From IMG/VR virus record IMGVR_UViG_3300019888_000209: DNA of 64,000 nucleotides; one strand, written 5' to 3'. The notes below the pieces were generated by a model. It was not told the origin of the DNA. It ran no database searches and saw only the letters and a program-made list of their open reading frames with translations. The position numbers and the translations under genes were made by a program. How positions within the stretch are numbered: the stretch's first letter is position 1; each line of letters opens with the position of its first letter. Origin of the DNA: a virus (Duplodnaviria > Heunggongvirae > Uroviricota > Caudoviricetes). This document shows, in pieces, positions 7,087-39,765 of this stretch.

Positions 7087-9033
7087 ATGGGAAACGCAGG
7101 CGGGATTATCTCACGGGGCGAATCTGTCACGCGCCAGCGTAATGAGGATATGAACCGACACGACCCGATCGCGCCGCACAGCGACGCGGCTACAGGAAAG
7201 GCACAAGGCCAGCGACTTGATGGTGATAATCTCCAATCGGTGCTCGATTCAGGCGCGAACGCCTGGCGCGTTGGCCGGCAACAGTTTTTCACGCCGCACG
7301 AGCTTGGCCGCACGCTGATGTTGCCGTTACCAGCGGCGCGCGAAAGCTTCGTCGATTTGACCATGGGCGCGGGCGCGTTGCTGAGCGCCAGCGGCGCAGC
7401 CAATCTTTACGGAATTGATATCGATTCACGTCTCGCCCGGAAGCCCACTTCTAATAATCTGGAAGCCACGAACCCAGGAAAAAAATCAAATTCATGGCCT
7501 CTCTCCACGGCGAGCCTTCGGCCTGGTTTCCAGATTCAAAATCAAAAATGGCACACGGTGTGCGCTGATCTTACGAGGTTTTATCCGTTGCTGCAGGAGA
7601 TTGATTGGCGCTTCGATCTCTGCGGGTTGAACCCGCCGTTTAGCGTGCGCTGGCATAAGCCGAACCTTGTCGCCCTCATCGATTCGGAGCTTGATACGGT
7701 GCGGCAAACATTCGGGCGCGGGAAGAAACCGACGATCGATTCCGTGTTGGCAACGTTTCTGATCGCGCTCGATCGCATGACCGATCGCGGCGAAGGTTTC
7801 CTGATTTGCACGGCCGCCGCAGCGCAAAAGATCGCAGCCACGCCGGTCGGCAAACACATCTGGCTATGGGTGACTGTCAAAGAAAAATCAGCCACGTCCG
7901 CCAGTCGGACGGACTCGTCCCGTGGCGAGGATGAACACGGATTTTCATTCGACGTGGCAGTGATTTACTTCGCGCGCGCGCATCGCGGACCGGAACCGTT
8001 TCGCCTATCCGTTGAATCTTCTCCTGGATTCCTGGCTTCCAGATTGACTCAATCTCTGGCTCCGATCGCGCGGCAGCGCGCTTTATTGCGCAAAGGTTTG
8101 TCGATCTTTTACCCCGACCATTTTTGCCCGCTTACACGCGAGCTTTGGGATGCGGCGAAGGAGGAATGGCTGCGCGTCAATCGCACAGAGGTTCCCGGCG
8201 ATTACAACATCTGGCTGAGAAAAGACGGGACGATCTGGCGGCACTTGACTCCGTTCCAAACTTGGAGCGGCAAAATCCCGCGCGCCAAAGCGGACTTGTT
8301 GAACCGGCTCGCCGGCCAAACGCCAATGTCGTTGGTAGTGCAAAAGGCAACGCGGCTGGCCTTGCTGGCCGCGATCGGAAAAAATAATCTGGAATCCAAG
8401 AATCCAGGAATTATTTCCGGGAAAAAGGGCTCCTGGTTTCCAGATTCAATTAAATCTTCCCCGTGGCGCGTTGACCCCGATCTTACAGCGGCCGTCGAAA
8501 ACGCGCTCGCCGAATATCACGCGCAACGCGCGCCGTTTTATCCGCTCAACGAAGTGCAACGCCTCGGATATCTGGACGAGGAAGACATGATCAAGTGCAA
8601 ACTCGAAGGTCTAACCGGATTCAAGCCTGGCAAAACCTACCCGCTCAGCTCGGAAACAATCGACGTGGAGCGCCAGGACGAGCGCCTGAATTTACTCGGC
8701 AACATCGAAGAGATAACGCTACAGGGAAAAGAACTCGCCTTTTACATCGAGGACGAGCGCGGCGACAAACACGCTTTCCTGCCCGCCGAAGCCCCCTGCT
8801 CCGCACTGCGTAGCTTCAGCAGCGCGCGTGAAGGAGATTACCACCACGATTTGCACGCGCTCATCCGGTATTTCGAAATTCCAGAAGTGGCGGACGTGGC
8901 GCAGATCGACCCCGACCGATACAATAATTTCGTGAACCAGATCCGCGCAATCGAGTCGGCAGTTAACAACAGAATTTCTCACCACGAAGGACACGAAAGC
9001 CACGAAGCTAAAACAGCAGTAGCCTCTTTCTGA
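7087..9033 (+). CDS. N6-adenine DNA methyltransferase (gamma-class motif order) carrying three in-frame family-A repeat insertions
   Basis: QQFFTP (motif X-like) at aa 65-70, Gly-rich TMGAGALL, then GLNPPFS (motif IV, NPPF) at aa 180-186. In-frame repeat insertions at 7456-7538, 8019-8045 and 8386-8446. C-terminus HHEGHESHEAKT is encoded by CACGAAG heptamers. Confidence 0.7.
   Translation: MGNAGGIISRGESVTRQRNEDMNRHDPIAPHSDAATGKAQGQRLDGDNLQSVLDSGANAWRVGRQQFFTPHELGRTLMLPLPAARESFVDLTMGAGALLSASGAANLYGIDIDSRLARKPTSNNLEATNPGKKSNSWPLSTASLRPGFQIQNQKWHTVCADLTRFYPLLQEIDWRFDLCGLNPPFSVRWHKPNLVALIDSELDTVRQTFGRGKKPTIDSVLATFLIALDRMTDRGEGFLICTAAAAQKIAATPVGKHIWLWVTVKEKSATSASRTDSSRGEDEHGFSFDVAVIYFARAHRGPEPFRLSVESSPGFLASRLTQSLAPIARQRALLRKGLSIFYPDHFCPLTRELWDAAKEEWLRVNRTEVPGDYNIWLRKDGTIWRHLTPFQTWSGKIPRAKADLLNRLAGQTPMSLVVQKATRLALLAAIGKNNLESKNPGIISGKKGSWFPDSIKSSPWRVDPDLTAAVENALAEYHAQRAPFYPLNEVQRLGYLDEEDMIKCKLEGLTGFKPGKTYPLSSETIDVERQDERLNLLGNIEEITLQGKELAFYIEDERGDKHAFLPAEAPCSALRSFSSAREGDYHHDLHALIRYFEIPEVADVAQIDPDRYNNFVNQIRAIESAVNNRISHHEGHESHEAKTAVASF
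7456..7538. repeat. family-A inverted-repeat element (CTGGAAxCCAGGAA...TCCTGGTTTCCAGATT), inside the methyltransferase
   Basis: aatctggaagccacgaacccaggaa...cctggtttccagatt; subtype with internal CTCTCCACGGCGAG. Confidence 0.85.
8019..8045. repeat. family-A half element, inside the methyltransferase
   Basis: ctcctggattcctggcttccagatt. Confidence 0.8.
8386..8446. repeat. family-A element, inside the methyltransferase
   Basis: aatctggaatccaagaatccaggaa...ctcctggtttccagatt. Confidence 0.85.
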
Positions 9034-9081
9034 ATCCGTGTTTCATAAGTTTACCCGCCGTGGCGGGTGTCAATCCGTGGC
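9033..9081. terminator. family-B hairpin (GTTTACCCGCCGTGGCGGGTG) between convergent genes; likely bidirectional terminator
   Basis: Perfect palindrome ACCCGCCGTGGCGGGT immediately after the methyltransferase stop and before the convergent gene 9196-9540. Confidence 0.4.
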
Positions 9082-9195
9082 CAAAATTCCAAAAAAGTGG
9101 CCGCGCCAGCTTGCGCCAACGCGGCCTGATCACCCGGCGCTCTGAGAGCGAAGGATAAACACCAATGACTACCCTAGGTGACGGAGATATGCCAG

Positions 9196-9540
9196 TCAAC
9201 GCGAGTCGTGATCGTCGTAGTCCGTAATTTTGCCGTTGACTTCGTAGCTTCCCCGGCTCAGCGATCTCATTTCGCGCCTATCTTTTGCAGTAGGTGTCCA
9301 ATCGGGTCCGTAGATATTTTGCATCATCGTCGTGAGAGCCTCCTCGTTCTTTGCGATTTCGGATCTTGCTTCCCCTGGATTTGAAGCTTCGCGCGAGTAA
9401 ATGTGGTCAACTATTGGGTCTGTCGGCGCCGGCGGCGTATTCACATGGGTCGTCCACGCAAGCACACAGACGGCAACTGCCACGATGACGAGGTAAATCT
9501 TTAGTAAGCGCGGAATATCTTTTATTTTTTTCATTTGCAT
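9196..9540 (-). CDS. small membrane-anchored protein
   Basis: N-terminal hydrophobic helix LLKIYLVIVAVAVCVLAW. Confidence 0.4.
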   Translation of the reverse strand: MQMKKIKDIPRLLKIYLVIVAVAVCVLAWTTHVNTPPAPTDPIVDHIYSREASNPGEARSEIAKNEEALTTMMQNIYGPDWTPTAKDRREMRSLSRGSYEVNGKITDYDDHDSR

Positions 9541-9607
9541 CTATACGAAACTTTCGTATGGTTGGGGTTAAATAATTGCCGGACCGACGTTACCGCCGAA
9601 TCCGGCA

Positions 9608-9868
9608 GTGAACAAAAACCCAACACCGTTAAATGAAAGGAATTCGTTCTTATGCAAAATACCATTGATTATGAAACTAGCAAAGCAAATCCAGTCGGCG
9701 CGAAAGGCGTTAAGGCTCAGCCAGTCCGAAGCCGCCACCATGTGGCAGATCAATCTGCGCACGCTTCAACATTGGGAGCAGGGAAGATCAGAACCCAAGG
9801 GGCTGGCGCGGATAAAACTGCAAGAAATCATACGGCAATCGAAAAAATCTTCTGGCCGGAAAGAGTGA
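9608..9868 (+). CDS. XRE-family HTH transcriptional regulator
   Basis: LRLSQSEAATMWQINLRTLQHWEQGRSEP is a typical XRE HTH pattern; its TGA stop overlaps the GTG of the next gene (GTGA). Confidence 0.6.
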   Translation: MNKNPTPLNERNSFLCKIPLIMKLAKQIQSARKALRLSQSEAATMWQINLRTLQHWEQGRSEPKGLARIKLQEIIRQSKKSSGRKE

Positions 9869-12516
9869 TCTGGGAGTCGCGCATCGGCGTCCGCAGCCAG
9901 AGTCTACGACAGGGCGGCGATACGGCATTTCGGTCGTTTCGCGCGGTTAAATTTCCCTCGCGCGTCAAGAACAGACAAATGAACGCGACAATGGAATCGC
10001 TTGAAATCGGCGCGAGTGAAGCGGCACGACCGACGCCGGCTACAAAGACGATGCCAGCGTTGCGGTTTCGCGCCTTTCAGGTCGACGACCTTGCCCGCGC
10101 GGCAATGTATGATGGGCTAATTCTTGGGTGGGATCCAGGCTTGGGCAAAAGTTTCGCCGCCTACATTTGGCCGCAACTAAAAGGTGCGCACAGGACCCTG
10201 ATCGTCGCGCCCGAACAATTGCACGAGCAGCTCCGGATCGAAGCTGGTCGCTTCTCAATTAAGTTACAGCCGTTGATGACGCACGAGGACTTCTACAATG
10301 ACGAACTCCTTCGCGCCGTGGCCTTGGAATACTCTCAATATTCAACCATCAGCTCTCAACTTTCTGGCTGGTGGCTGACGAGTTACAGCGCGCTTGGCTA
10401 CAACGGTGGAGATGAATGGAGTCCAAAGGAAAAGGAAAACGGCGAGATCATCCTTAATAGGACCATCGTTGGCAGGCGACAGACACACCCGATCTATCGC
10501 GAGGAATTTGATTTTGGAATTGGAGAAGAAAAATCCATCTGGAACCCAGGCCGAAGGCTCGCCGTGGAGAGAAACCAGGAAGAAGAAAAGGGACAAGGGG
10601 TTCCTGGGTTCTTGGCTTCCAGATTAGATCACTCTGTCAGGTGTGTGTTTACACCCACGCTGGCATTACTCGTTGCGGATCTCTTCGACTGCGTCGTATG
10701 CGATGAGGCCGTGAGAATAAAAACTGGCCAGACTTACTGTTCGCTGGGCGTACGGATGCTCACACCAAAATATCGCCTAATTCTTACGGCGACTCCAATC
10801 AAAAACACATTGCCAGATATCTTCTGGCTGGCGCAATGGGCTTGCGGTGGCCATTTAGGCGCCACGGCGCGCTGGCCATACGCCAACGCTTCCGACGCTA
10901 AGGAAACTTTCAGCACTGAACACCTTTTGATCGAACGCAATCACACCAAGGAAGCGGAACACCAGCAGCGGACCGGCCGTCACAAATCATTCAAGAAACG
11001 GACACCGAAGATTTGCAATATCCATCGGCTTTGGAAGCTGCTCGGACCGGTCGTGCTACGCCGGCGCAAAGACGACACCGGCGAAGAGATCGTGCCGAAG
11101 ACAATCATCCCGATTCGGGTGCGGCCAGGCACGGCGCAACAGGTCGTTTACCGGTTTCACCTGGATAATCCGCCGAAGATCGCCAAGAACGGCAAGCCGA
11201 TGGAAAAAATGGCGTCCATCGTGTCGCAGCTACAAAACTTGCGGCAAGCGGCGCTGTGCCCCGACTCCACGAACCTGAGCGAAATCGGATTGTCCATGCA
11301 CGGCCTTCGCGAGTTAATCAAGAAAGCTAAACATAATCCGGAAGCCGACCTTGCGTTGACGCACAAAGCGGTCCTGGTGGCGGTCAAAGGTGAACGCACG
11401 CCGTTTGAAGGGGAAAAGCAAGTGGCGTTGGCAATCCTCGAGCGATGGTCCCGCCTCGAAGGCGGGAGCAAAATCGATGTCGCCAAGATCATCGAAGCCG
11501 CGCCGACACTCGAAGAACATCTACGGCCGTTCATTGTCGATCTGGACGCGCGGAAGCACGCGCGAAGCTGGACCGATCACAACCCGAAACAGGCGGCCAT
11601 ACTCAAATTGATTGAAGAACTGATTTCGAAAGGCGAACAAGTCGTCGTCGTCTCGCCGTTCCAGCACTTTTCGCAGACGCTTTACCGGCGTCTCATGGAA
11701 GCCAACGTCAGCACGTGTTTACTCGACGGCAACGTGTCGCCCGACAAACGCGGCAAGCTGGCAAAACAATTCAAACAGAAACGGTTTGCCGTGCTCGTTG
11801 GCGGAATTAAATCGATGGGCGAAGGTTTTTCCTTCGAGTGCGCCAGCAATCTCATTTTGCCGTCGATCGAGTGGGCGTTTGATAACAACAAACAATCGAT
11901 CGATCGCGTGCACCGCTTGATCTCCGAAAAACCGGTCACGATTTACACGATGGTAACGATCAACACCATCGACGAACGATTGGAAGGCGTGTTTCGCGAC
12001 AAGGGCGACAGTTCAAACCTCGCGCTGGACGGCCGCTTGTTCGCAGACAAGACCGACGAAATCAATCTCGGGAAACTTTTGGCCGATGCCATTCGCGACT
12101 TCAATCCGGCTGCCGAAACCATTCCGGAGAAGGATATCGAAACGGAATGGGAAGGCACGTTACGCCAGAAACTGCGCATGGCAGAGCAACGTTTCCGCGA
12201 ATTTTGGCCGCCGATCGTACCGGACATTGCCGGCGCGAAACTTTCGGCTGCCGAAGTGCGCCGCGCCATGGAGAAACTTTCGTCCCGCGATGGCGGGACC
12301 GGCGGCATCGCATCGATTATCAACTGCATCCCGAGCGCGACCATCGGCGCGTTGACCGGCACCGCGGACCGCGAGAAAATCGAAAAGGCCCGGCGCGCGT
12401 TCACAGAATTTTGCATCGCGAAAAACATCAGCGATTGGAAGCAAGGCTGGCGCGCCTGGGAAGCCACCGGCGGGGTGGAGAAGTTGCCCGCGAATCACGC
12501 GAATAGACGCGAATAA
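9865..12516 (+). CDS. SNF2/RAD54-family helicase with one in-frame family-A repeat insertion
   Basis: Motif I DPGLGKS, motif Ia TLIVAP, motif II VVCDEAVRIK (DEAx), motif III LTATPIKN, C-terminal helicase domain VVVVSPFQ...SIDRVHRL. GTG start at 9865 coupled to the upstream HTH gene. Insertion at 10535-10626. Confidence 0.75.
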   Translation: MIWESRIGVRSQSLRQGGDTAFRSFRAVKFPSRVKNRQMNATMESLEIGASEAARPTPATKTMPALRFRAFQVDDLARAAMYDGLILGWDPGLGKSFAAYIWPQLKGAHRTLIVAPEQLHEQLRIEAGRFSIKLQPLMTHEDFYNDELLRAVALEYSQYSTISSQLSGWWLTSYSALGYNGGDEWSPKEKENGEIILNRTIVGRRQTHPIYREEFDFGIGEEKSIWNPGRRLAVERNQEEEKGQGVPGFLASRLDHSVRCVFTPTLALLVADLFDCVVCDEAVRIKTGQTYCSLGVRMLTPKYRLILTATPIKNTLPDIFWLAQWACGGHLGATARWPYANASDAKETFSTEHLLIERNHTKEAEHQQRTGRHKSFKKRTPKICNIHRLWKLLGPVVLRRRKDDTGEEIVPKTIIPIRVRPGTAQQVVYRFHLDNPPKIAKNGKPMEKMASIVSQLQNLRQAALCPDSTNLSEIGLSMHGLRELIKKAKHNPEADLALTHKAVLVAVKGERTPFEGEKQVALAILERWSRLEGGSKIDVAKIIEAAPTLEEHLRPFIVDLDARKHARSWTDHNPKQAAILKLIEELISKGEQVVVVSPFQHFSQTLYRRLMEANVSTCLLDGNVSPDKRGKLAKQFKQKRFAVLVGGIKSMGEGFSFECASNLILPSIEWAFDNNKQSIDRVHRLISEKPVTIYTMVTINTIDERLEGVFRDKGDSSNLALDGRLFADKTDEINLGKLLADAIRDFNPAAETIPEKDIETEWEGTLRQKLRMAEQRFREFWPPIVPDIAGAKLSAAEVRRAMEKLSSRDGGTGGIASIINCIPSATIGALTGTADREKIEKARRAFTEFCIAKNISDWKQGWRAWEATGGVEKLPANHANRRE
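10535..10626. repeat. family-A element, inside the SNF2 helicase
   Basis: atctggaacccagg...ggctcgccgtggagag...ttcctgggttcttggcttccagatt. Confidence 0.85.
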
Positions 12517-12539
12517 AGAAACAGGGAAAATAACAAAAA

Positions 12540-12692
12540 ATGAAAAGAAATAAACCAACTAAAGCTGGCGAGCGGACGCAAGAGCAATACCCGGAAGCGG
12601 AGCAAGTGGCAAACCTGCTTAACGTTATTAAGCAACACGAAGACCAATACGTTCTTGGCAAAATTGAAGACGGGAAGCTCACGCCGAATTGA
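12540..12692 (+). CDS. small hypothetical protein (50 aa), paralogous N-terminus to 3927-4211
   Basis: MKRNKPTKAGERTQ...; shares AAGCTGGCGAGCGGACGCA with 3947-3965; below the ORF-track length cut-off. Confidence 0.25.
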   Translation: MKRNKPTKAGERTQEQYPEAEQVANLLNVIKQHEDQYVLGKIEDGKLTPN

Positions 12693-12747
12693 AGGAACGC
12701 CGTGCGACGCGCCCGGAATGGTATTACACTTCGTGAGGAACCAGCCT

Positions 12748-12885
12748 ATGCTCGAACTCACCAAAGGAAATATTCTCGAAGCGGACACCGAAGCGCTCGT
12801 CAATACGGTCAACACTGAGGGCGTAATGTATGAGGCTTACCGAAGAGCGTGCGAGGCCGCACCCAGCCGTGTAGTCCGTGGCTAA
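12748..12885 (+). pseudogene. macro-domain (DarG-like) N-terminal remnant
   Basis: MLELTKGNILEADTEALVNTVNTEGVM matches the macro-domain N-terminal block (GNIL...EALVNTVN..GVMG) but the frame terminates about 35 aa in. Confidence 0.35.
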
Positions 12886-13027
12886 TTTTTTAAGAAAGAC
12901 AAATTTTGATTGACAAGCTCCAAGCGCTTGTTCCATATGTAACACTTTACTCCGTGAGATACAACCCGGGAACACAAACCACGCTCACGATGTTATCTCA
13001 CGGGGCCAAAAAACAGGATAAACACCA

Positions 13028-14065
13028 ATGCCACAGAAAAAACGAATCGAAGATATCGCCAAGGGACGCACTAATCTATTCTCGTTGCCCTGGCGAGATT
13101 GCGAGCCCGCGGTAATCGACGACGCCGGCCGTCCCGTAAAACTCAACACCCGCCAAGACTTCGGCAACATAGCCGAGTTTGCCGCGTCGCTGGCGGACGC
13201 AATCAGAGAGCCCGTTCTCGGATACATGGGCGAGAACGGGAAATTCCAGATCACCAACGGCGAGCGTCGCTGGCGCGGCGTCCAATGGCTGGAAAAGCAC
13301 AAGAGCGTAAAAGTTTTACTGCCGTGCGTGCGCGAAAGCCAGGGATATACCGACACCGATCGCAACGTCGACTTGCTCCGGACCAACAACGGCAAGCCGC
13401 TGGAAATGATCGAGCAAGCCGAAGCCATGATCCGCCTTCGCCAAGGCTACGGCGGACAGGCCAGCATGAGTGAGAAAGAGATCGCGCACAAAGCCGGTTG
13501 CTCGCCAACGCACGTGGCGAATTGCCTGGCGCTCCTGAACGACGCCGCGCCGGAAGTGCAAGAGGCAGTGCGCAAGGGCGAAATGACCGGCACGTTGGCA
13601 GTCGATCTCGCGCGCAGCGTGCCCAACAAAGAAAGACAAACAGAGATTTTGGAAAAAGGACGGGAGAAAGCGTTGGAGACGGCGCGCCCTCGCGCCGTAC
13701 GTGGCGAGGGCGCCACGTCTCCAACCAAGAAAACAAAGGTGACCGCGAAACATCTGTCGGTCGCCACCGGAAAGAAAGCGCAGTCGGCCAAGAAGGCGGC
13801 CAAGAAGCAGCACGACACCGACGCGCAGTTTTGGGACCAGAGCCAAGGCAAATTCGTCATCAAGTCGCCCCAGCGCTCCGTAAAGTCGAACAAGGCAGGT
13901 GGAAAATCTGCCGGGCTGGCGATGCTCGAGGAGCTTCTCGACGCCGTGGAGCGCAAAGATTGCGAGGACAAGGCGCGTTACGACACGCTCGAATTTCTCT
14001 ACGACTACAGTGCCGGCCGCCAGAACATGGCGAACGCCACAAAATTCATTTTGGGAATGATCTAA
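13028..14065 (+). CDS. parB: ParB-like partition/nuclease-domain protein with HTH and Lys-rich tail
   Basis: ITNGERRWRG (ParB GERRxRA box), central HTH EIAHKAGCSPTHVANCLALL, K-rich C-terminal segment. Preceded by GGATAAACACCAATG. Confidence 0.7.
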   Translation: MPQKKRIEDIAKGRTNLFSLPWRDCEPAVIDDAGRPVKLNTRQDFGNIAEFAASLADAIREPVLGYMGENGKFQITNGERRWRGVQWLEKHKSVKVLLPCVRESQGYTDTDRNVDLLRTNNGKPLEMIEQAEAMIRLRQGYGGQASMSEKEIAHKAGCSPTHVANCLALLNDAAPEVQEAVRKGEMTGTLAVDLARSVPNKERQTEILEKGREKALETARPRAVRGEGATSPTKKTKVTAKHLSVATGKKAQSAKKAAKKQHDTDAQFWDQSQGKFVIKSPQRSVKSNKAGGKSAGLAMLEELLDAVERKDCEDKARYDTLEFLYDYSAGRQNMANATKFILGMI

Positions 14066-14094
14066 CCACGAATGGACACAAATTTACACGAATG

Positions 14095-14121
14095 AATTCC
14101 TGGGTTTCCTGGTTTCCAGAT
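14095..14121. repeat. family-A half element, intergenic (parB to recombinase)
   Basis: ttcctgggtttcctggtttccagatt. Confidence 0.8.
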
Positions 14122-14168
14122 TATGACGACGAACACATCCTGCGAATGTCCGCAGTCGATTTTTAACT

Positions 14169-14987
14169 ATGAGCGAACGAATCCAGAAACCAACCGAGCA
14201 CGATTGCCCGGCTAAAGTTGTCGGCTACGTGCGCGGCTCCACCGACGAGCAGTTGAACACGCTCGAAGCGCAAGAGAATCAGATCCGCGCGTATTGCGCC
14301 TATAAAAATCTTGACCTGGTGAAGGTCTATATCGAATCGGGCGAATCCGGCAGCGTGAGTTTTTACGAGCGGCCGGTAGCAGCTCAAATGCTGCAAGAGA
14401 TTGGAACGAATCTGGAATCCAGGAAACCAGGAATTTCCTTTCGGGAAGACGGGCTCCTGGCTTCTAGATTAAATAATTCTGCGATTTCCGGCATCGTAAT
14501 CACCAAACTCGACCGCGGTTTCCGTAACGCGCTCGATTGCCTGTTTACTTTGGAGAATCTCACGGCGCGCGGAATCGGGTTGCACTTGCTGGATATTCAG
14601 CTCGACCCCGATACGCCGGTGGGAAAATTACTTCTGACCATGCTCGCCGCGATCGCGGAGTTTGAAAACAAACGGCGCAGCGAACGCCAGGTAGCCGCGT
14701 TCGCCGTGATGAAATCCAAAGGCCAGCGATGCGGGACCATTCCCTACGGCTATCAACTCTCAACTATCAACTCTCAACTTGTCGAAGACCCAGAAGAAAT
14801 GAGGGTTCTTCGACAAATCATTCACTGGATTGAAGTCGAGCACATGGCCGTTTCAAAAATCGCGCGGTTGCTCAACGAAGCCGGCACGCCCACCAAACAA
14901 GGCGGCAAGAAATGGTTCCCGGGGACCGTAAGTAGCGTTTACAAACATCGAAGAATTTCGGATATCGAAAACCGGAAAGCAGCATGA
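14169..14987 (+). CDS. serine recombinase (resolvase/invertase family) with in-frame family-A repeat insertion
   Basis: VGYVRGSTDEQ (catalytic Ser block), ITKLDRGFRN, EFENKRRSERQ. Repeat insertion TNLESRKPGISFREDGLLASRLNNSA at 14409-14470. C-terminus GTIPYGYQL recombinase-like. Confidence 0.75.
   Translation: MSERIQKPTEHDCPAKVVGYVRGSTDEQLNTLEAQENQIRAYCAYKNLDLVKVYIESGESGSVSFYERPVAAQMLQEIGTNLESRKPGISFREDGLLASRLNNSAISGIVITKLDRGFRNALDCLFTLENLTARGIGLHLLDIQLDPDTPVGKLLLTMLAAIAEFENKRRSERQVAAFAVMKSKGQRCGTIPYGYQLSTINSQLVEDPEEMRVLRQIIHWIEVEHMAVSKIARLLNEAGTPTKQGGKKWFPGTVSSVYKHRRISDIENRKAA
14409..14470. repeat. family-A element, inside the serine recombinase
   Basis: aatctggaatccaggaaaccaggaa...ctcctggcttctagatt. 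Confidence 0.85.
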
Positions 14988-15116
14988 GACACCAATTTTT
15001 CCACCATCGTCTCGACGTCGCCGCAGCGTCTTACAGACGAGGACGGCGCCGGGTTCTATGTGAAGGTGCCGGCGTTATTTCCAGGAGAATAACAAACAAG
15101 AAAGAACAAGAAAAGC

Positions 15117-15434
15117 ATGAAGACGAAGTTATACCGGCAAGGCGATGTGCTGATTGAGCAGGTCGCTAAGTTGCCGAAAAACCTAAAAAGGCAGGCAGGT
15201 GAGAATGGCCGGATCATTCTGGCTCGTGGTGAAGCGACTGGCCATCATCATTCGGTGAATATCGATGCTGCTGATTGGTGGAAATCAGATAGCGGCGAGC
15301 AATTTCTCACAGTCGAGAAACAAGCTGAAGTCACTCACCAGGAACATGACGCGCTGGTCTTGCTACCCGGGAATTACCGGGTGCGTCGACAGCGGGAATA
15401 CACACCAGAAGCGATCCGCAATGTCGCAGACTAA
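15117..15434 (+). CDS. hypothetical small protein
   Basis: MKTKLYRQGDVLIEQV...; composition suggests a beta-rich fold; no named motif. Confidence 0.4.
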   Translation: MKTKLYRQGDVLIEQVAKLPKNLKRQAGENGRIILARGEATGHHHSVNIDAADWWKSDSGEQFLTVEKQAEVTHQEHDALVLLPGNYRVRRQREYTPEAIRNVAD

Positions 15435-16479
15435 AGTAATAGAGAAACTGACGGCCGAGCAGGAGCTCGACCTTTCCGAGACCTATCGGCATGGGGTCGC
15501 AATCGGTCGATCATCGCTGCCGCTCGACCGACCGGCAGTGGCGACTATTATCCGCGAATTGTACGCCAGGATAGGAGAAGCGCCGCCCGTGTTGCTTTTC
15601 TTCACGTCGCCACTGCTCTGTATCTTGGCCTATGGAATTTTGTCCAAGATAGGGTCGCAATTGGGGTCGCAATTGGGGTCGCAATTGGGGTCGCAATTGG
15701 GGTCGCAATTGGAGTCGCAATTGAGGTCGCAATTGGGGTCGCAATTGGAGTCGCAATTGGGGTCGCAATTGGGGTCGCAATTGGGGTCGCAATTGGGGTC
15801 GCAATTGAGGTCGCAATTGAGGTCGCAATTGAGGTCGCAATTGAGGAACTATTTTGCAGGCAATCAGTGGTGTGCCTGGCAAGTGTTTTACGATTTTTGC
15901 CGGAGAATCGGTGTCCGATTTTCCGGCGAGCAAAATGAGCTATTGGATCTGTGGCTTGAGGAGGGGCGCCAATGTCATTGGTGGTGGTCGTATAAAGGCA
16001 TTGTCCTTGCCTCAGAACGACACACCTCGCTCAACTTGGACGATCGTGGCCGATTGCATTCAGTAACAGGACCAGCGCTTTCCTACGCAGATGGATGGAG
16101 TGTTTATGCGGTCCATGGCGTAAGAATCGAAGCAGAGCTCATCGAACATCCGGAGAAAATCACGGTTAAGAAAATCGAGAACGAAACTAATGCTGAGATT
16201 CGCCGGGTAAAAATCGAGCTTTATGGTCAGCAGCGTTATCTGTTGGATTCCGGAGCGAAAGAGATCCATACCGACGATTATGGGACGCTTTACCGAAAGG
16301 ATTTATCTGGCGATGAGCCAATCGTGATGGTGAAAGTGGTTAATTCCACGCCAGAACCAGATGGAACATTCAGGGATTATTTTCTTCGCGTCCCGCCGGG
16401 AATTACGAAAGCGCGCGAGGCCGTGGCATGGACATTTGATATTGAGTCGAATGCCTATGCCTTGGCTAAACAGACATGA
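15421..16479 (+). CDS. (GSQL)n tandem-repeat protein with conserved C-terminal domain
   Basis: ATG at 15421 overlaps the previous stop. N-terminal domain, then about 16 copies of GSQL/ESQL/RSQL encoded by a 12-bp tandem repeat, then a Trp-rich C-terminal domain (CHWWWSYKGIVLASERH...). Confidence 0.5.
   Translation: MSQTKVIEKLTAEQELDLSETYRHGVAIGRSSLPLDRPAVATIIRELYARIGEAPPVLLFFTSPLLCILAYGILSKIGSQLGSQLGSQLGSQLGSQLESQLRSQLGSQLESQLGSQLGSQLGSQLGSQLRSQLRSQLRSQLRNYFAGNQWCAWQVFYDFCRRIGVRFSGEQNELLDLWLEEGRQCHWWWSYKGIVLASERHTSLNLDDRGRLHSVTGPALSYADGWSVYAVHGVRIEAELIEHPEKITVKKIENETNAEIRRVKIELYGQQRYLLDSGAKEIHTDDYGTLYRKDLSGDEPIVMVKVVNSTPEPDGTFRDYFLRVPPGITKAREAVAWTFDIESNAYALAKQT
15652..15846. repeat. 12-bp tandem repeat (GGGTCGCAATTG)n, about 16 units with G/A and G/T variants
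   Basis: Read directly: gggtcgcaattg, gagtcgcaattg, gaggtcgcaattg units. Confidence 0.9.
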
Positions 16480-16961
16480 TGATGAGCGCGCTCAATATCA
16501 GGATCGTTCGGCCGCAAACGCGCGTAAGTTTGTTCGGTTACCCGTGGATCGTCGCCAAGCCATATCGCGATCTTGTAAAGACTCACGCCGTTGCTGGCGA
16601 GCAAACTGGCGAAAGTATGGCGCATCAGGTGCGGCGTGAGCTTGGTCTGGCCGATCATTTGCAGTTCCTGGTTTTTCGCGTGTTCGAGGAACGGCCGCGT
16701 GAAATCGTAGCGGTAACGGTTTGCGCCGTGTTTCACTTCCGGCCGGAGCATGTAAGGCTCGCGCAATCCGTAGCCTTTCAGAAAAGTTTGGAACCGTCGC
16801 GTAAGCGGGATGGTGCGTTCCTCGCGGTCCTTGAACTTGATTGTCGGAGTCCCGCGCAAGTGCAACAGGCCCGCGGGCAGATCGAACCACCAGGGCCGCG
16901 CCTCAATGATCTCGTTCTTGCGCAGACCGGCGTGAAATCCGCAGTAGAGCACAAACGTCAA
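16455..16961 (-). CDS. tyrosine recombinase (integrase) catalytic domain only; N-terminal core-binding domain absent
   Basis: AGLRKNEI (box I Arg), LTPHLMRHTFASLLASNGVSLYKIAIWLGD...TEQTYARL (HxxR, catalytic Tyr). Only 168 aa; an in-frame stop lies just upstream. Confidence 0.55.
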   Translation of the reverse strand: MTFVLYCGFHAGLRKNEIIEARPWWFDLPAGLLHLRGTPTIKFKDREERTIPLTRRFQTFLKGYGLREPYMLRPEVKHGANRYRYDFTRPFLEHAKNQELQMIGQTKLTPHLMRHTFASLLASNGVSLYKIAIWLGDDPRVTEQTYARLRPNDPDIERAHHHVCLAKA

Positions 16962-17092
16962 GTCTTCGCGTGTGCACCTTTTAATGAGTCGATCGCATTG
17001 CGCTTCCGAGCAGAAGTCTTTGAACCGCCGGCCTCGGAAATCCGTGGCGACAAGATCAAACTGCGAAGGATGAAACGGCGGGCAGGCCGACT

Positions 17093-18073
17093 ATGAGCGC
17101 GAACAGCACCATCGAGTGGACCGATCACACATGGAACCCATGGGAAGGGTGCACCAAGAAATCGCCCGGGTGCAAGAATTGCTACGCCGAAGCGCGCAAC
17201 AAACGGTTCGCCGGCGCGAATTGGGGAAAGGGCAAGCCCAGGCGGCGCACCAGAGAAGCGAACTGGCGGATGCCGCTGCGATGGAATCTGGAAACCAGGA
17301 AAACAGGAAAACGATTTAAGATTTTTTTGTCGCTATGCGACTGGCTGGACGAAGAAGTGCCGATCGAATGGCTGTCTGATTTCCTGGCCTTGATCTATGC
17401 GACGCCGAATCTCATCTGGCAATTGCTCACCAAATCGCCGGAGAATTGGCGCACGCGGCTTACGGAAACTTTGCACGTGCTCGTCCGCCAAGAAAATTTT
17501 ACCGCGGCGGTCGAGGTTCGGGCCTGGCTGCAACAGGAACCGCCGCTTGCACCGCAAAACGTCTGGCTGGGCGTGAGCGTGGAGGATCAGGAGCGCGCGG
17601 ATGAACGCATGCCGGTGCTGTTAAACATTCCGGCGAAACTGCACTTTCTTAGCTGCGAGCCCCTGCTCGAGCCCATCGACCTAGAAAACTATTTGCCCTG
17701 TAGCCGTCGCCCTGTGGGCGACGCGCGCGCTTCGCACAGCGAAGCGGCTACAGTCGATTGGGTAATCGCCGGCGGCGAATCCGGTCCTGGTGCGCGGCCG
17801 TGTGATATCCAGTGGATTCGCGAAATCATCGCGCAATGCGAGCTGGCCAAGGTGCCGGTGTTCGTGAAGCAGCTTGGCGCGTTTCCGTTTGATTTTGACG
17901 GGCGAGAAGAGGTTTGGTTGAAGACGCTGCCTCCGCAATACCGCGACGGAACGCGATACGCGATCGCCGAGCGTCGAATCAAAGACCGCAAAGGCGGCGA
18001 CCCAGCAGAATGGCCGGAAGACTTGCGCATCAGGCAATTCCCATCCGTGAAATCCGTGGTTGTTCCAAAATGA
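17093..18073 (+). CDS. phage Gp37/Gp68-family protein (DUF5131-like) with in-frame family-A and family-E insertions
   Basis: N-terminus IEWTDHTWNPWEGCTKKSPGCKNCYA, later WLGVSVEDQ, SCEPLLEPI, DWVIAGGESGP. Insertions WNLETRKTGKRFKIF (17285-17312) and CSRRPVGDARASHSEAAT (17699-17752). Confidence 0.7.
   Translation: MSANSTIEWTDHTWNPWEGCTKKSPGCKNCYAEARNKRFAGANWGKGKPRRRTREANWRMPLRWNLETRKTGKRFKIFLSLCDWLDEEVPIEWLSDFLALIYATPNLIWQLLTKSPENWRTRLTETLHVLVRQENFTAAVEVRAWLQQEPPLAPQNVWLGVSVEDQERADERMPVLLNIPAKLHFLSCEPLLEPIDLENYLPCSRRPVGDARASHSEAATVDWVIAGGESGPGARPCDIQWIREIIAQCELAKVPVFVKQLGAFPFDFDGREEVWLKTLPPQYRDGTRYAIAERRIKDRKGGDPAEWPEDLRIRQFPSVKSVVVPK
17285..17312. repeat. family-A half element, inside Gp37/Gp68
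   Basis: aatctggaaaccaggaaaacaggaaaac. Confidence 0.8.
17699..17752. repeat. family-E nested palindrome (GTAGCCGTCGCCC..GGGCGACG..CGCTTCGCACAGCGAAGCGGCTACAG), in frame in Gp37/Gp68
   Basis: Near-identical copy at 45935-46010; translated CSRRPVGDARASHSEAAT. Confidence 0.85.
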
Positions 18074-26882: not shown

Positions 26883-26894
26883 AAATTTAATTCA

Positions 26895-26973
26895 AATCTG
26901 GAAACCAAGAACCCAGGAAGGTTTCTGAATTCTGCAATTCTACGTTTTTTCCTGGTTTCCTGGCTTCTAGATT
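26895..26973. repeat. family-A element, intergenic (tail protein to tape-measure gene)
   Basis: aatctggaaaccaagaacccaggaa...cctggtttcctggcttctagatt. Confidence 0.85.
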
Positions 26974-26987
26974 AAAAAACGTATTCA

Positions 26988-31235: not shown

Positions 31236-31243
31236 AAAAACTT

Positions 31244-31314
31244 ATCTAGAAACCAGGAAACCAAGAAAAAAGAAAAAAGGGACGGCGGGCTCCTGGCTTC
31301 GTGGCTTCCAGATT
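31244..31314. repeat. family-A element, immediately upstream of the tape-measure start
   Basis: atctagaaaccaggaaaccaag...ctcctggcttcgtggcttccagatt. Confidence 0.85.
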
Positions 31315-31404
31315 AAATCATCACAGCTTCCCTATCGCGCTGCGCGTTGTCTTTCAAAGAAAAACGACGCGCGCCGTAAAAATTAAAGCAACTGCTTTAG
31401 GATT

Positions 31405-31462
31405 TATCTGGAAGCCAGGTCGCAGACTCGCCGTGGAGAGAATCCAGGAATTTCCGGAATCT
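31405..31462. repeat. family-A variant followed by a family-B hairpin
   Basis: atctggaagccagg...ctcgccgtggagagaatccaggaa; then gtttacccgccgtggcgggtg at 31470-31500. Confidence 0.75.
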
Positions 31463-34007: not shown

Positions 34008-34032
34008 AATCTGGAAACCAGGAACCCAGGAA
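34008..34032. repeat. family-A half element, intergenic
   Basis: aatctggaaaccaggaacccaggaa. Confidence 0.8.
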
Positions 34033-36555: not shown

Positions 36556-36582
36556 ATTCCTGGCTTCCTGGTTTCCAGATTA
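36556..36582. repeat. family-A half element, intergenic
   Basis: ttcctggcttcctggtttccagatt. Confidence 0.8.
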
Positions 36583-37230: not shown

Positions 37231-37304
37231 AATCTAGAAGCCAGGAAGCCAGGAATTTCCGGACTTAAAAAAGATTCTTTTTCCTGGATTCCTGGGTTCC
37301 AGAT
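37231..37304. repeat. family-A element, intergenic
   Basis: aatctagaagccaggaagccaggaa...tcctggattcctgggttccagatt. Confidence 0.85.
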
Positions 37305-37753
37305 TCATTCTGTTTTTCGTTTTTCTCATCATGACCGAATGGCCACCAAGGGGGCTCTGTAGAGGAAGTCCTATATTTCCTAATGACTGTCTTTGGGGTA
37401 AATGCCGGAGCCGGCGGCGTGGGACTAATTTCGCGTCTCTTTACCGACGTTACTGCCCTTGGCGAGTTAGTAGGAGTAGGAGAAGGTATCGGGGTTGGGG
37501 TTGGGAAGAATTCCGATCTTTCATTCGAACTATTGTCCCATTTCACACTCGCGAAATCCTGTCTCAGCGATTTTATCGAATCCACCACGCCAAGAATTTG
37601 TGAGTGGATCAATTGTTCCTCTTCTTGAATGGCTTTAAGATTTTTTTCCTCTGCCCGATACTGAAAAACATTGACCACCACTCCCGCAATCATTGCTACA
37701 ATCGCAACGGACAATATTACGATTCTCCAAATGTTCTTATCTTTATCGCTCAC
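37265..37753 (-). CDS. membrane protein (N-terminal TM)
   Basis: IWRIVILSVAIVAMIAGVVVNVF. Confidence 0.35.
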   Translation of the reverse strand: MSDKDKNIWRIVILSVAIVAMIAGVVVNVFQYRAEEKNLKAIQEEEQLIHSQILGVVDSIKSLRQDFASVKWDNSSNERSEFFPTPTPIPSPTPTNSPRAVTSVKRREISPTPPAPAFTPKTVIRKYRTSSTEPPWWPFGHDEKNEKQNESGTQESRKKNLF

Positions 37754-38710: not shown

Positions 38711-39181
38711 TTACGCTGGCACCTCCCCTTCCTGGGCCATTGTCTCGGCGTCGAACGTCAGGTTTTGATTCGGCGTCGTGACCTTTTGGCCGCGCAACGT
38801 TACCGCCCCGTACGTGCGTTTCGCCCTCAACCCGGTGTCTTCATCCGTCCATTCGATTACCATCGTGTATGGCAGGTCCGGATCGATATCCGGAACACCG
38901 GGCGGATTAGTGCTCGCGTCAATGAGATACAGATTCCCGATTTCAATTACGTGGCTCTCGCCTATCTTTTTCTTCTTGGCCTGCGCTACGCCTGGGATTT
39001 CAACGTCGCGTCGCGGATATTCGTCGGTGCAGACGATGTTGTCCGCGCATCCGCCTATCCAGATTTGCGCGCCTGGGTGAGCCGGGTCATAGAACGAAAT
39101 GTCGGCCTCCAGGATCGTTAGCGGTATCCCGTTCATCGATTGAATCTGGAAGCCAGGAAACCATGAAATTTCTGAGCACAA
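38711..39181 (-). CDS. hypothetical structural protein
   Basis: ORF only. Confidence 0.35.
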   Translation of the reverse strand: MCSEISWFPGFQIQSMNGIPLTILEADISFYDPAHPGAQIWIGGCADNIVCTDEYPRRDVEIPGVAQAKKKKIGESHVIEIGNLYLIDASTNPPGVPDIDPDLPYTMVIEWTDEDTGLRAKRTYGAVTLRGQKVTTPNQNLTFDAETMAQEGEVPA

Positions 39182-39210
39182 ACCCTTCCTGGATTCCTGG
39201 TTTCCAGATT
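39142..39210. repeat. family-A element, intergenic
   Basis: aatctggaagccaggaaaccatg...tcctggattcctggtttccagatt. Confidence 0.85.
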
Positions 39211-39692: not shown

Positions 39693-39702
39693 AGGATTTT
39701 TT

Positions 39703-39765
39703 ATCTGGAATCCAGGAATCCAGGAATTTGATGAGATTTTTTCATGGCTTCCTGGTTTCCAGATT
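39703..39765. repeat. family-A element, intergenic
   Basis: atctggaatccaggaatccaggaa...cttcctggtttccagatt. Confidence 0.85.

What the first reader, a model, noticed from the sequence alone, without database searches (positions are those of the whole stretch)
7087..18073. Palindromic MITE-like elements inserted in frame inside conserved enzymes (methyltransferase, SNF2 helicase, serine recombinase, Gp37/Gp68)
Family-A elements (core AATCTGGAAACCAGGAA...TCCTGGTTTCCAGATT, 25-90 bp) occur about 18 times in 64 kb.
- Three copies interrupt the N6-adenine methyltransferase, between its FFTP and NPPF motifs and further downstream.
- One copy sits in the SNF2 helicase, one in the serine recombinase (between the catalytic-Ser block and KLDR), and one in Gp37/Gp68.
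- Every intragenic copy keeps the reading frame and adds no stop, so the proteins would carry 9-35 aa peptide inserts such as NLESRKPGISFREDGLLASRL or NLEATNPGKKSNSWPLSTASLRPGFQIQNQ.
This resembles the in-frame palindromic elements of Rickettsia (RPEs). It is unusual in a phage-like region and implies either strong selection on element sequence or recent, frame-restricted spread.
Basis: seen in the sequence. Interest (0 to 1): 0.85.

Follow-up and report, generated by a model that had tools for sequence, protein, structure and literature searches.

The report
In-frame hairpin repeats in prophage genes
A prophage of a soil Verrucomicrobia bacterium carries 18 copies of a short hairpin repeat that is common in its host group; a few copies sit in frame inside phage enzymes, mostly as tolerated loop insertions, and the same repeat arms flank a small nuclease gene in host chromosomes, which hints at how the repeat arises.

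Summary
The repeat family is real. Arm matches fall in 18 loci in 64 kb, against 0.26 matches expected by chance.

Each arm is (TG)AATCTGGAA followed by one or two NCCAGGAA octamers. The loops vary.

The family is not phage-specific. The same hairpins occur in many Chthoniobacterales and Udaeobacter chromosomes.

Four copies are true in-frame insertions: two in the methyltransferase, one in SNF2 and one in the serine recombinase.
- Close orthologues lack them.
- Three of the four map to disordered loops in structure models.
- In related phages, other palindrome families occupy the same loops.

Two "copies" add little or no length: the second methyltransferase copy and the DUF5131 (Gp37/Gp68) copy. 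The DUF5131 arm is shared with a homologue of only 55% identity.

Frame retention needs no special design. The arms have no stop codon in any of the six frames. Copies are strongly depleted from coding DNA (6 of 18 against 89% coding).

New lead: the same arms flank a GxxExxY PD-(D/E)XK nuclease gene in host chromosomes. This holds generally (61 of 78 loci, 0 of 78 controls). One 165-nt cassette is an internally deleted intermediate.

Verdict: a new variant of a known kind, comparable to Rickettsia palindromic elements (RPEs) and intragenic REPs, with a candidate parent cassette that I could not find described.

The parts
7087..9033 (+). N6-adenine DNA methyltransferase-like gene (648 aa). It carries three family-A copies and a family-B tail.
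   Evidence: ORF. It has 93 homologues, some with N6_Mtase or MTS Pfam domains. The model matches M.BseCI, CamA and M.TaqI.
7456..7536 (.). Family-A hairpin, 81 nt, in frame (aa 124-150). Its right arm carries the nested module CTCTCCACGGCGAG.
   Evidence: The closest homologue P0002/L001 lacks it. In the model the insert lies between strands 106-111 and 154-159, and residues 126-130 and 133-147 have pLDDT below 50.
8015..8045 (.). Solo right arm (TTCCTGGCTTCCAGATT) with an AATCT...AGATT frame, in frame (aa 310-320).
   Evidence: It adds only +1 to +3 aa compared with homologues. It lies in confidently modelled strand/helix (pLDDT 82-93), so it is not a clear insertion.
8386..8446 (.). Family-A hairpin, 61 nt, in frame (aa 434-454). 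Net insertion of about 22 aa.
   Evidence: Absent from P0002/L001 and most homologues. In the model it is a loop with pLDDT below 50, aa 434-456.
9652..12516 (+). SNF2-family helicase gene.
   Evidence: Pfam SNF2-rel_dom and Helicase_C. Orthologues are in L002 and L004.
10533..10625 (.). Composite family-A element in frame (about aa 294-325): a left arm interrupted by the module CTCGCCGTGGAGAG, a loop, and a three-unit right arm.
   Evidence: L002 is 16 aa shorter here. L004 has a different, TEDTE-type repeat at the same place. Its hairpin is weak (z = -0.3).
14092..14122 (.). Solo right arm, intergenic, between the ParB-like gene and the recombinase gene.
14169..14987 (+). Serine recombinase (resolvase/invertase) gene.
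   Evidence: Pfam Resolvase, matched in two stretches, plus Recombinase.
14409..14470 (.). Family-A hairpin, 62 nt, in frame. The net insert is about 23 aa (roughly aa 79-105).
   Evidence: Absent from P0096, P0097, P0100 and more than 15 other orthologues. P0095 has the same element. L004 and L002 have other palindrome families at the same site. It is a disordered loop between helix 69-78 and strand 106-111. It is 55/56 nt identical to L290, against 82-89% in the flanks.
17093..18073 (+). DUF5131 (Gp37/Gp68) gene.
   Evidence: Pfam PF07505, E = 2e-71.
17285..17309 (.). Solo left arm in frame (NLETRKTG). It causes no length change.
   Evidence: The W64-F78 segment is 13 aa, at the short end (range 11-58) among 41 proteins. 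L291, at 55% aa identity, has AATCTGGAAGCCAGGAA at the same codons.
26895..26973 (.). Intergenic hairpin between the tape-measure gene and the next gene on the minus strand.
   Evidence: RNA fold -32.8 kcal/mol, z = -5.8.
31243..31314 (.). Intergenic hairpin just upstream of the tape-measure start codon.
31403..31460 (.). Left arm carrying the nested module CTCGCCGTGGAGAG, intergenic.
34008..34032 (.). Solo left arm. It ends 4 nt before the ATG at 34037, so ...CCCAGGAAaaatATG reads like a ribosome-binding site.
36557..36581 (.). Solo right arm, between convergent genes.
37231..37305 (.). Hairpin that overlaps the last 13 codons of gene 37265-37753 (minus strand).
   Evidence: RNA fold -32.9 kcal/mol, z = -5.0.
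39143..39210 (.). Hairpin that overlaps a doubtful TTG start of gene 38711-39181 (minus strand).
   Evidence: z = -5.2.
39702..39765 (.). Intergenic hairpin.
45104..45128 (.). Solo right arm, intergenic.
47688..47756 (.). Intergenic hairpin.
   Evidence: RNA fold -34.3 kcal/mol, z = -6.6.
57322..57369 (.). Solo right arm carrying the nested module CTCTCCACGGCGAG, intergenic.

Best explanation
**What it is.** Family A is one family of a wider class of short hairpin repeats.
- Each arm is AATC followed by tandem 8-9-nt units of the form (W)SGAAANN. In family A this reads AATCTGGAA-NCCAGGAA-NCCAGGAA.
- The family is endemic to Chthoniobacterales (Verrucomicrobiota) chromosomes.
- The 64-kb window is a prophage of such a host and carries 18 copies that lack an ORF.

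**Long form.** In host chromosomes the same arms enclose a cassette of about 455 nt. Its loop is a roughly 130-aa GxxExxY (PF13366 / TIGR04256) PD-(D/E)XK nuclease gene. Short hairpins can arise from this cassette by internal deletion; one intermediate was found.

**Where copies sit.** Most copies lie between co-directional or convergent genes. There they form stable hairpins of about -33 kcal/mol and probably act at the RNA or DNA level, much as REP-type elements do.

**Copies inside genes.** A copy that lands in a gene survives only if it keeps the frame and falls in a tolerant loop.
- This happens readily, because the purine-rich arm has no stop codon in any of the six frames.
- The result is the four real insertions: two in the methyltransferase, one in SNF2 and one in the recombinase.
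- The surviving intragenic copies have shortened right arms and weak hairpins.

**Inferred, not shown.** I infer that new copies are made with help in trans from host GxxExxY nucleases. The nuclease would cut a hairpin, a cruciform or a target site, and repair would copy an ectopic element into the break. A conversion-type process of this kind would also explain three observations:
- the two same-length arm 'patches' (methyltransferase aa 310-320 and DUF5131);
- the replacement of one family by another at the same site in related phages;
- the unusually high nucleotide conservation of the recombinase element.
For: **Repeat family and structure**
- Repeat statistics and anatomy.
- Core arm positions pair in 47-68 of 68 hairpins (one, position 22, in 33). 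The N position of each octamer pairs only at chance level.

**Host-wide distribution**
- The exact 17-mer occurs in more than 120 genome stretches. Most are Chthoniobacterales, Udaeobacter or Spartobacteria MAGs.
- These include 43 distinct hairpins with conserved arms and unrelated loops.

**The window is a prophage**
- It has a tape-measure gene.
- Host CsoR and P-type ATPase genes lie just past position 64000.
- The contig is 324 kb.

**The insertions are lineage-specific**
- Methyltransferase. Recombinase. SNF2.

**The inserts fall in loops**
- The models give pLDDT below 50 at recombinase residues 83-86, 88-92 and 94-102, and at methyltransferase residues 126-130, 133-147 and 434-456.

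**No special coding design**
- Arms are open in 6 of 6 frames. Intergenic copies are open in 2-6 of 6, all but one in 4 or more.
- Only 6 of 18 copies are fully intragenic although 88.7% of the window is coding (P = 4e-8).
- Intragenic hairpins fold weakly (z = -0.3 to -4.1). Intergenic ones fold strongly (z = -5.0 to -6.6).

**Link to the GxxExxY nuclease**
- L008 and eight orthologous loci have family-A arms around a TIGR04256 ORF (E = 4e-37).
- 61 of 78 metagenomic GxxExxY loci have flanking inverted arms scoring 14 or more, against 0 of 78 controls. The arm families seen are A, A' (AATCAGGAAAGCAGGAA) and B (CACGAAA).
- 21 of the 31 loci outside the common nuoG-adjacent site also have such arms.
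- L032 is a 165-nt cassette that keeps only 28 codons of the ORF.

**Shared descent among window copies**
- The module CTCGCCGTGGAGAG is nested at the same arm position in four copies.
- A loop motif GGGA..GGGC is shared by five copies.

**Nucleotide-level constraint or recent exchange**
- The recombinase element is 55/56 nt identical to L290, against 82-89% in the flanks (binomial P about 0.002, my calculation).
- The DUF5131 arm is shared with a homologue of 55% identity.
Against: - No movement was observed.
  - No clean filled-versus-empty pair defines the element ends or a target-site duplication.
  - The sequence next to each insert has diverged too far.
- No GxxExxY gene lies in the window or in the few kb of host DNA seen beside it.
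- 47 of the 78 GxxExxY loci are a single orthologous site inherited vertically, so the number of independent associations is smaller than it looks.
- The association could run the other way: the nuclease gene may insert into hairpins that already exist.
- The function of PF13366 is listed as unknown (PMC3424549), and no solved structure matches it by sequence.
- The octamer N positions do not covary. That fits sequence recognition of each arm, but it gives no positive covariation support for a selected RNA structure.
- The same-length 'patches' could equally be old insertions trimmed back by later deletions.
Confidence: 0.65

Rival explanations
1. REP/REPIN-type elements: short extragenic palindromes copied by a RAYT (Y1 HUH, IS200/IS605-like) transposase of the host, with occasional intragenic copies as reported for GTAG/CGTC REPs.
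For: - High copy number and conserved stems with variable loops.
- Both singlets and inverted doublets occur.
- Copies sit between co-directional and convergent genes. This matches the description of REPs, which include intragenic REPs in replication and repair genes (PMC3733652).
Against: - The arms begin (TG)AATC. They have no GTAG or CGTC head.
- Each arm is a tandem octamer array, not itself a palindrome.
- No Y1 transposase appeared among the 25 most frequent Pfam families (of 98 matched) reported for 85 ORFs next to host copies. This sampling was shallow.
- The ORF found between matching arms is a PD-(D/E)XK nuclease, not a RAYT.
Confidence: 0.12
2. Classical MITEs: internally deleted copies of a DDE insertion sequence, moved in trans by its transposase and leaving target-site duplications.
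For: - Terminal inverted repeats that often extend to 5'-TG...CA-3'.
- Short length and dispersed copies.
- Two IS1595-like transposase genes lie in the window.
Against: - The IS at 21972-24173 has unrelated 26-nt terminal repeats.
- No target-site duplication is visible.
- Internal sequence differs between copies, apart from the loop motif shared by five window copies.
- No transposase appeared among the 25 most frequent Pfam families reported for ORFs next to host copies.
Confidence: 0.08
3. Not mobile at all. The hairpins would be regulatory or structural signals, such as mRNA-stabilising or RNase III sites, ribosome-binding-site sequestration, or protein-binding arrays. They would be kept by selection and homogenised by gene conversion. 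The intragenic copies would be by-products of conversion into sequence that already resembled the arm.
For: - Arm sequence is conserved across species at one orthologous site while the enclosed ORF has diverged to about 70% aa identity.
- The recombinase element is more conserved than its flanking codons.
- Two arm patches change no length.
- The arms contain AGGAA motifs. One solo arm supplies a ribosome-binding-like site 4-5 nt before an ATG.
- Intergenic hairpins are very stable.
Against: - The four clear insertions add 16-26 aa of new sequence where orthologues have none, so new DNA did arrive.
- Copies occur in many unrelated contexts and with nested modules.
- A strong hairpin inside an ORF has no obvious regulatory use, and the intragenic copies are in fact degraded.
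Confidence: 0.15

Closest known systems
Rickettsia palindromic elements (RPEs)
   Same: Short palindromic repeats that often lie in frame inside conserved protein genes, add a peptide and are thought compatible with the fold (review PMC10969869; PMC3733652).
   Different: - Here the elements are shorter: 60-100 nt against roughly 100-150 bp for RPEs.
- The interior varies, so the only conserved peptides are those encoded by the arms (NLETRKPG / PGFLASR).
- The sequence family, host phylum (Verrucomicrobiota) and setting (a prophage) all differ.
- Most copies are intergenic (12 of 18).
- I did not compare the sequences with RPEs.
REP / BIME / REPIN elements, including intragenic REPs
   Same: - Conserved stems with variable loops.
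- Singlets and inverted doublets.
- Position between co-directional or convergent genes.
- Some copies inside replication and repair genes (PMC3733652).
   Different: - No GTAG or CGTC tag.
- Arms are tandem octamer arrays with an unpaired N every 8 nt.
- No RAYT gene was seen.
- A PD-(D/E)XK nuclease gene sits between matching arms.
ORF-bearing 23S rRNA intervening sequences, e.g. the Coxiella burnetii IVS with its S23p ORF
   Same: A selfish cassette of about 430-460 nt in which inverted repeats form a stem around a small ORF (PMC4990558 abstract). The host GxxExxY cassettes are about 455 nt with the ORF in the loop.
   Different: - The cassettes here lie between protein genes, for example upstream of a nuoG-like gene, not in rRNA helices.
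- The ORF is a GxxExxY nuclease, not S23p or a four-helix-bundle protein.
- RNase III excision was not tested.
Intragenic bacterial MITEs (Coxiella QMITE, ERIC, Correia/NEMIS)
   Same: Small inverted-repeat elements that can fuse in frame with host ORFs (PMC10969869; PMC5896051 listed).
   Different: No target-site duplication, no conserved interior and no matching insertion sequence were found here.

Membership tests
Rickettsia palindromic elements (RPE) | Palindromic repeat inserted in frame in protein genes, absent from orthologues | tested here: met
   Four copies are absent from close orthologues and keep the frame.
Rickettsia palindromic elements (RPE) | Membership of the RPE sequence families, about 100-150 bp, with a conserved encoded peptide along the whole element | not tested
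   - No sequence comparison with RPEs was run.
- The size (25-102 nt) and the variable interior differ from the published description (PMC10969869).
- This is therefore an analogy, not membership.
REP / REPIN | Conserved GTAG or CGTC tetranucleotide at one end of the palindrome | tested here: not met
   All copies start (TG)AATC(T/A)GGAA. The definition is taken from PMC3733652.
REP / REPIN | Association with a RAYT (Y1 HUH) transposase gene flanked by the repeats | tested here: inconclusive
   No Y1_Tnp among the 25 most frequent Pfam families (of 98 matched) for 85 ORFs within 2 kb of host copies. Only 8-kb fragments were sampled, not whole genomes.
REP / REPIN | Mostly extragenic, between co-directional or convergent genes | tested here: met
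   12 of 18 copies lie mainly in the 11% of the window that is non-coding (10 entirely; two overlap gene ends). All are between co-directional or convergent genes.
MITE | Terminal inverted repeats | tested here: met
   Arms of 17-30 nt, with core positions complementary in 47-68 of 68 hairpins (one position 33).
MITE | Target-site duplication | tested here: inconclusive
   No direct repeat is evident at the ends of more than 50 copies. No clean empty site was available.
MITE | Ends and interior derived from a parent insertion sequence with a transposase | tested here: not met
   - The IS1595-like element in the window has unrelated terminal repeats.
- Interiors differ between copies, apart from a loop motif shared by five window copies.
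- The only ORF-bearing relative carries a PD-(D/E)XK nuclease, not a known transposase.
IVS-like ORF-in-hairpin cassette | Small ORF enclosed by inverted repeats that form a long stem, about 0.4-0.5 kb | tested here: met
   This applies to the host long form only. 61 of 78 GxxExxY loci have flanking inverted arms, against 0 of 78 controls. Arm-to-arm length is about 455 nt.
IVS-like ORF-in-hairpin cassette | Excision of the stem from the transcript by RNase III | not testable with these tools
   Needs RNA-end mapping in a Chthoniobacterales strain or a heterologous host.

The most novel reading that the evidence does not exclude
The hairpin families A, A' and B, and perhaps the many other octamer/nonamer-armed palindromes of Verrucomicrobia and their phages, would be the non-autonomous form of an undescribed class of mobile cassette. 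The only gene of that cassette is the roughly 130-aa GxxExxY PD-(D/E)XK nuclease.

The nuclease would recognise the tandem-octamer arms and drive break-and-copy (conversion-type) spread. That mode of spread could:
- insert new hairpins;
- overwrite resident sequence without changing its length;
- swap one family for another at the same protein loop.

This would give a function to a large protein family whose function is listed as unknown. It would also provide a mechanism that repeatedly remodels surface loops of phage and bacterial proteins.
Probability: 0.3. Interest if true: 0.8.

Novelty: new variant of a known kind. Interest (0 to 1): 0.6.

Why it matters
- In-frame palindromic repeats in genes are known from Rickettsia, Coxiella and REP-rich Proteobacteria. 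Here they appear in a different phylum and in a prophage.
- Related phages carry different palindrome families in the same protein loops. These phage enzymes are therefore natural records of which loops tolerate 15-35 extra residues.
- The main gain is a lead on origin: repeat arms of this kind flank most sampled genes of the widespread GxxExxY nuclease family (61 of 78 loci), whose function is unknown, and a deletion intermediate exists. That makes the origin and spread of the repeats, and the function of the nuclease, directly testable.
- For annotation, these repeats create spurious small ORFs (for example the 33-aa call at 26887-26988) and odd protein tails. They can also hide Pfam domains: the methyltransferase gets no Pfam hit.

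Tried and rejected
- **Chance or native sequence.** Rejected for four copies by shuffles and by comparison with orthologues. For the DUF5131 and second methyltransferase copies, the 'insertion' reading was rejected instead.
- **MITE of the IS1595-like element in the window.** Rejected because its terminal repeats are unrelated.
- **Known RNA family.** No Rfam family reaches its gathering score anywhere in the window.
- **Assembly polymorphism of the elements.**
  - A second assembly of the same strain is 99.97-100% identical, and every element is present.
  - The only indel is a 66-nt tandem-repeat copy difference unrelated to family A.
- **Relatives of the recombinase in IMG/VR.** None were found.
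- **Closer DUF5131 orthologues.** The best is only 54% identical.
- **Transposase near host copies.** None appeared among the 25 most frequent Pfam families shown, of 98 matched.
- **Solved structure for GxxExxY by sequence.** None.
- **Literature on GxxExxY / PF13366.** Only a superfamily table that lists the function as unknown.
- **Covariation in the stems.** The variable N positions pair at chance level, so they give no compensatory signal.
- **Module CTCGCCGTGGAGAG in host loci.** Absent from 874 kb of sampled loci, so it may be specific to this strain or phage.

Full report

Yes.
- AATCTGGAAACCAGGAA with up to 3 mismatches gives 35 arm matches, against 0.26 expected from dinucleotide-preserving shuffles. 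The matches fall in 18 loci.
- Ten loci are full hairpins. Eight loci are solo arms.
- Each arm is (TG)AATCTGGAA followed by one or two NCCAGGAA octamers.
- In 68 distinct hairpins from the window and host loci, the core arm positions pair in 47-68 cases (one position, 22, in 33). The N of each octamer pairs only at chance level: 16 of 68 and 13 of 68.
- Four copies carry the same nested module, CTCGCCGTGGAGAG, at the same place inside an arm.
- Five copies share a loop motif, GGGA..GGGC. At least some copies are therefore related by descent.

**2. Context**

The window is a prophage.
- It has a tape-measure gene.
- Host CsoR and P-type ATPase genes lie just beyond position 64000.
- The same sequence sits on contigs of 124 kb and 324 kb.

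The host is probably a member of the Chthoniobacterales.
- Named methyltransferase homologues come from Chthoniobacteraceae and Verrucomicrobiota.
- The exact 17-mer occurs in more than 120 genome stretches. Most are Chthoniobacterales, Udaeobacter or Spartobacteria MAGs. I estimate about 70 chance hits over the whole 596-Gb collection, which accounts for the scattered hits in other phyla.
- Forty-three distinct hairpins from those chromosomes have the same arms and unrelated loops of 15-60 nt.

Family A is therefore a repeat of the host clade, not of the phage.

**3. Are the intragenic copies insertions?**

*Methyltransferase (7087-9033)*
- The closest homologue, P0002/L001 (77% identity), lacks copy 1 (net about 26 aa) and copy 3 (net about 22 aa).
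- Other homologues carry different repeat-like peptides at the copy-1 site. L001 itself has a 19-nt palindrome there, GATGCAACGTCACGTTGC.
- In the structure model both inserts are loops with pLDDT below 50: residues 126-130 and 133-147, and residues 434-456.
- The fold matches N6-adenine DNA methyltransferases, although Pfam reports nothing.

*Recombinase (14169-14987)*
- P0096, P0097, P0100 and more than 15 other orthologues have no insert.
- P0095 (83% identity) has the same element.
- The L004 orthologue has a GGAAAGCAGGAA-type hairpin at the same site, and the L002 orthologue has an ATCCGTG-type hairpin there.
- In the model the insert is a disordered loop between helix 69-78 and strand 106-111. 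This lies between the catalytic serine and the KLDR motif.

*SNF2 (9652-12516)*
- The element spans about 10533-10625.
- L002 is 16 aa shorter here, and L004 has yet another repeat at the same place.
- No structure model was made for SNF2.

*Two copies that are not insertions*
- The arm at 8015-8045 adds at most 1-3 aa and lies in confidently modelled strand/helix.
- The DUF5131 arm at 17285-17309 leaves the W64-F78 segment at 13 residues, near the shortest (range 11-58) among 41 proteins.
- A homologue of only 55% identity (P0172/L291) has AATCTGGAAGCCAGGAA at the same codons.

**4. Does frame retention need a special explanation?**

No.
- The consensus arm is open in all six frames.
- Intergenic copies are open in 2-6 of 6 frames, all but one in 4 or more.
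- Only 6 of 18 copies are fully intragenic although 88.7% of the window is coding (binomial P = 4e-8).
- Intragenic hairpins have a shortened right arm and fold weakly (z = -0.3 to -4.1). Intergenic hairpins fold at about -33 kcal/mol with z = -5.0 to -6.6.

This is the pattern expected from many insertions filtered by purifying selection. It does not suggest an element designed to be translated.

All four left arms that are translated use the same frame (NLE...). With so few cases this is only suggestive.

**5. Age and constraint**

- The recombinase element is shared with L290 and is 55/56 nt identical, apart from a 6-nt in-frame deletion. The flanking coding DNA is 82-89% identical. I calculate a binomial P of about 0.002.
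- This copy is therefore not a fresh insertion.
- Either its nucleotide sequence is constrained, or it has been exchanged or converted recently.
- The DUF5131 arm shows the same excess conservation.

**6. A candidate parent**

While screening ORFs next to host copies, I found a 143-aa ORF (as called, its first codons are the arm itself; about 132 aa from the next start) that begins inside a family-A arm.
- It is a GxxExxY protein (TIGR04256, E = 4e-37; Pfam PDDEXK_3).
- In L008 the layout is: stop codon of the upstream gene, then ATGAATCTGGAAACCAGGAAACCAGGAA, then the ORF, then TTCCTGGTTTCCTGGCTTCCAGATTCATG, where the final ATG starts a nuoG-like gene.
- Eight more loci show the same orthologous site.

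A scan of metagenome contigs with a GxxExxY alignment returned 80 loci, of which 78 could be scored.
- 61 have inverted arms flanking the ORF with a score of at least 14. None of 78 composition-matched controls do.
- All arms are of the form AATC plus tandem 8-9-mers: families A, A' (AATCAGGAAAGCAGGAA), B (AATCACGAAAACACGAAAG) and others.
- 47 loci are the single nuoG-adjacent site.
- The other 31 fall into roughly two dozen separate contexts, and 21 of them have such arms.
- Arm-to-arm length is about 455 nt.
- L032 is a 165-nt version that keeps only 28 codons of the ORF between intact arms. It is an internal-deletion intermediate towards the short hairpins.

The window itself has no GxxExxY gene. 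The literature held here lists PF13366 as of unknown function.

**7. How it most likely works**

*Shown*
- A host-wide hairpin repeat family is present in the prophage.
- Four copies are lineage-specific in-frame insertions, three of them in modelled disordered loops.
- The arm composition is free of stop codons.
- Copies are depleted from coding DNA.
- The same arms enclose a nuclease gene elsewhere.

*Inferred*
- The short hairpins are non-autonomous derivatives of the cassette.
- New copies arise by nuclease-triggered break repair that copies an ectopic element.
- This would also account for the same-length patches, for family replacement at one site in related phages, and for the high nucleotide conservation.

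Intergenic copies probably act as stable RNA or DNA hairpins in the manner of REPs. One solo arm (34008-34032) places AGGAA 4-5 nt before an ATG.

*Rivals*

Three rival readings are scored in the rivals section:
- RAYT-driven REPs;
- DDE-driven MITEs;
- non-mobile regulatory hairpins homogenised by gene conversion.

The family fails the tested defining features of REPs (no GTAG or CGTC head) and of MITEs (no parent insertion sequence and no conserved interior).

**8. Comparison with what is known, and novelty**

- In-frame palindromic repeats are known. A 2024 review calls in-frame MITE fusions 'not unusual' and cites RPEs as the extreme case (PMC10969869). Intragenic REPs in replication and repair genes are also described (PMC3733652).
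- New here are the sequence class (tandem-octamer arms), the phylum and the prophage setting.
- Also new is the recurrent occupation of the same protein loops by different families in related phages. L002 adds its own 49-nt palindrome in frame in SNF2, ParB and the resolvase.
- The arm-nuclease association is new as far as I can tell. Its closest analogue is the ORF-bearing 23S rRNA intervening sequence (PMC4990558).
- I rate this a new variant of a known kind, of moderate to high interest mainly because of the nuclease lead.

Noticed in passing
window 8983-9007; 19073-19136; 19390-19414; 32920-33010; 33428-33443; 34307-34322; 38259-38274; 53370-53385: A second hairpin family (B) with arms made of CACGAAG nonamers. 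Two copies supply C-terminal protein tails: HEGHESHE on the methyltransferase, and the end of gene 19151-19489.
   Followed up: partly
window 18043-18058; 24421-24492; 43804-43885: A third family (C) with ATCCGTG nonamer arms. A full hairpin lies in frame inside gene 24141-24668 (minus strand), and one arm forms the DUF5131 C-terminal tail. The same family occupies the recombinase loop in the related locus L002.
   Followed up: partly
window 9054-9067; 18121-18209; 31479-31492; 38320-38333; 59756-59769: A fourth palindrome family built on CCCGCCGTGGCGGG. Two copies lie inside predicted genes (18070-18498 and 59656-59817).
   Followed up: no
window 975-1168: A cluster of GTAGCAAAGTAGCAA octamer-repeat arms in both orientations in one intergenic region. 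This is the only repeat in the window that contains GTAG.
   Followed up: no
window 7501-7514; 10558-10571; 31427-31440; 57334-57347: The 14-nt module CTCGCCGTGGAGAG is nested at the same position inside four family-A arms. It is absent from 874 kb of sampled host loci.
   Followed up: partly
window 34008-36581: A solo left arm (34008) and a solo right arm (36557-36581) bracket 2.5 kb of a plus-strand gene block that sits inside the minus-strand late region. The bracketed genes include a Zn-peptidase and a Band_7 gene. This may be a cargo-carrying long form.
   Followed up: no
window 48409-48569 (gene 48180-50786, minus strand): A 66-nt tandem repeat has 2.4 copies here and one copy fewer in a second assembly of the same strain. 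This gives an in-frame 22-aa copy-number difference.
   Followed up: yes
window 15652-15843: Sixteen tandem copies of a 12-nt unit encode (GSQL)n inside a DUF6745 protein. The two assemblies differ by a few substitutions in this gene.
   Followed up: no
window 21972-24173 and 20226-21140: An IS1595-like insertion sequence with 26-nt terminal inverted repeats (88% complementary) carries a transposase gene at 23068-23985 (minus strand). A second IS1595-like transposase gene lies nearby.
   Followed up: partly
window 9652-10060: The first ~135 residues of the SNF2 ORF as listed have no counterpart in the two orthologues. The true start is probably near MPALRF.
   Followed up: no
L002 11107-11157; 14259-14307; 16355-16403: A related phage contig has its own 49-nt palindrome family (TGTAGCCGG...CCGGCTACA) in frame in SNF2, the ParB-like gene and the resolvase.
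   Followed up: partly
L008 1491-1949 and orthologous sites in L014, L015, L034, L092, L096, L101, L068, L032: A GxxExxY nuclease cassette with hairpin arms (family A in most; a related variant in L092) is conserved just upstream of a nuoG-like gene in many Verrucomicrobia. Related metagenome loci have family A' arms at the same site.
   Followed up: yes
window 26887-26988: A 33-aa gene called in the public assembly lies almost entirely within the hairpin element and is probably spurious.
   Followed up: no
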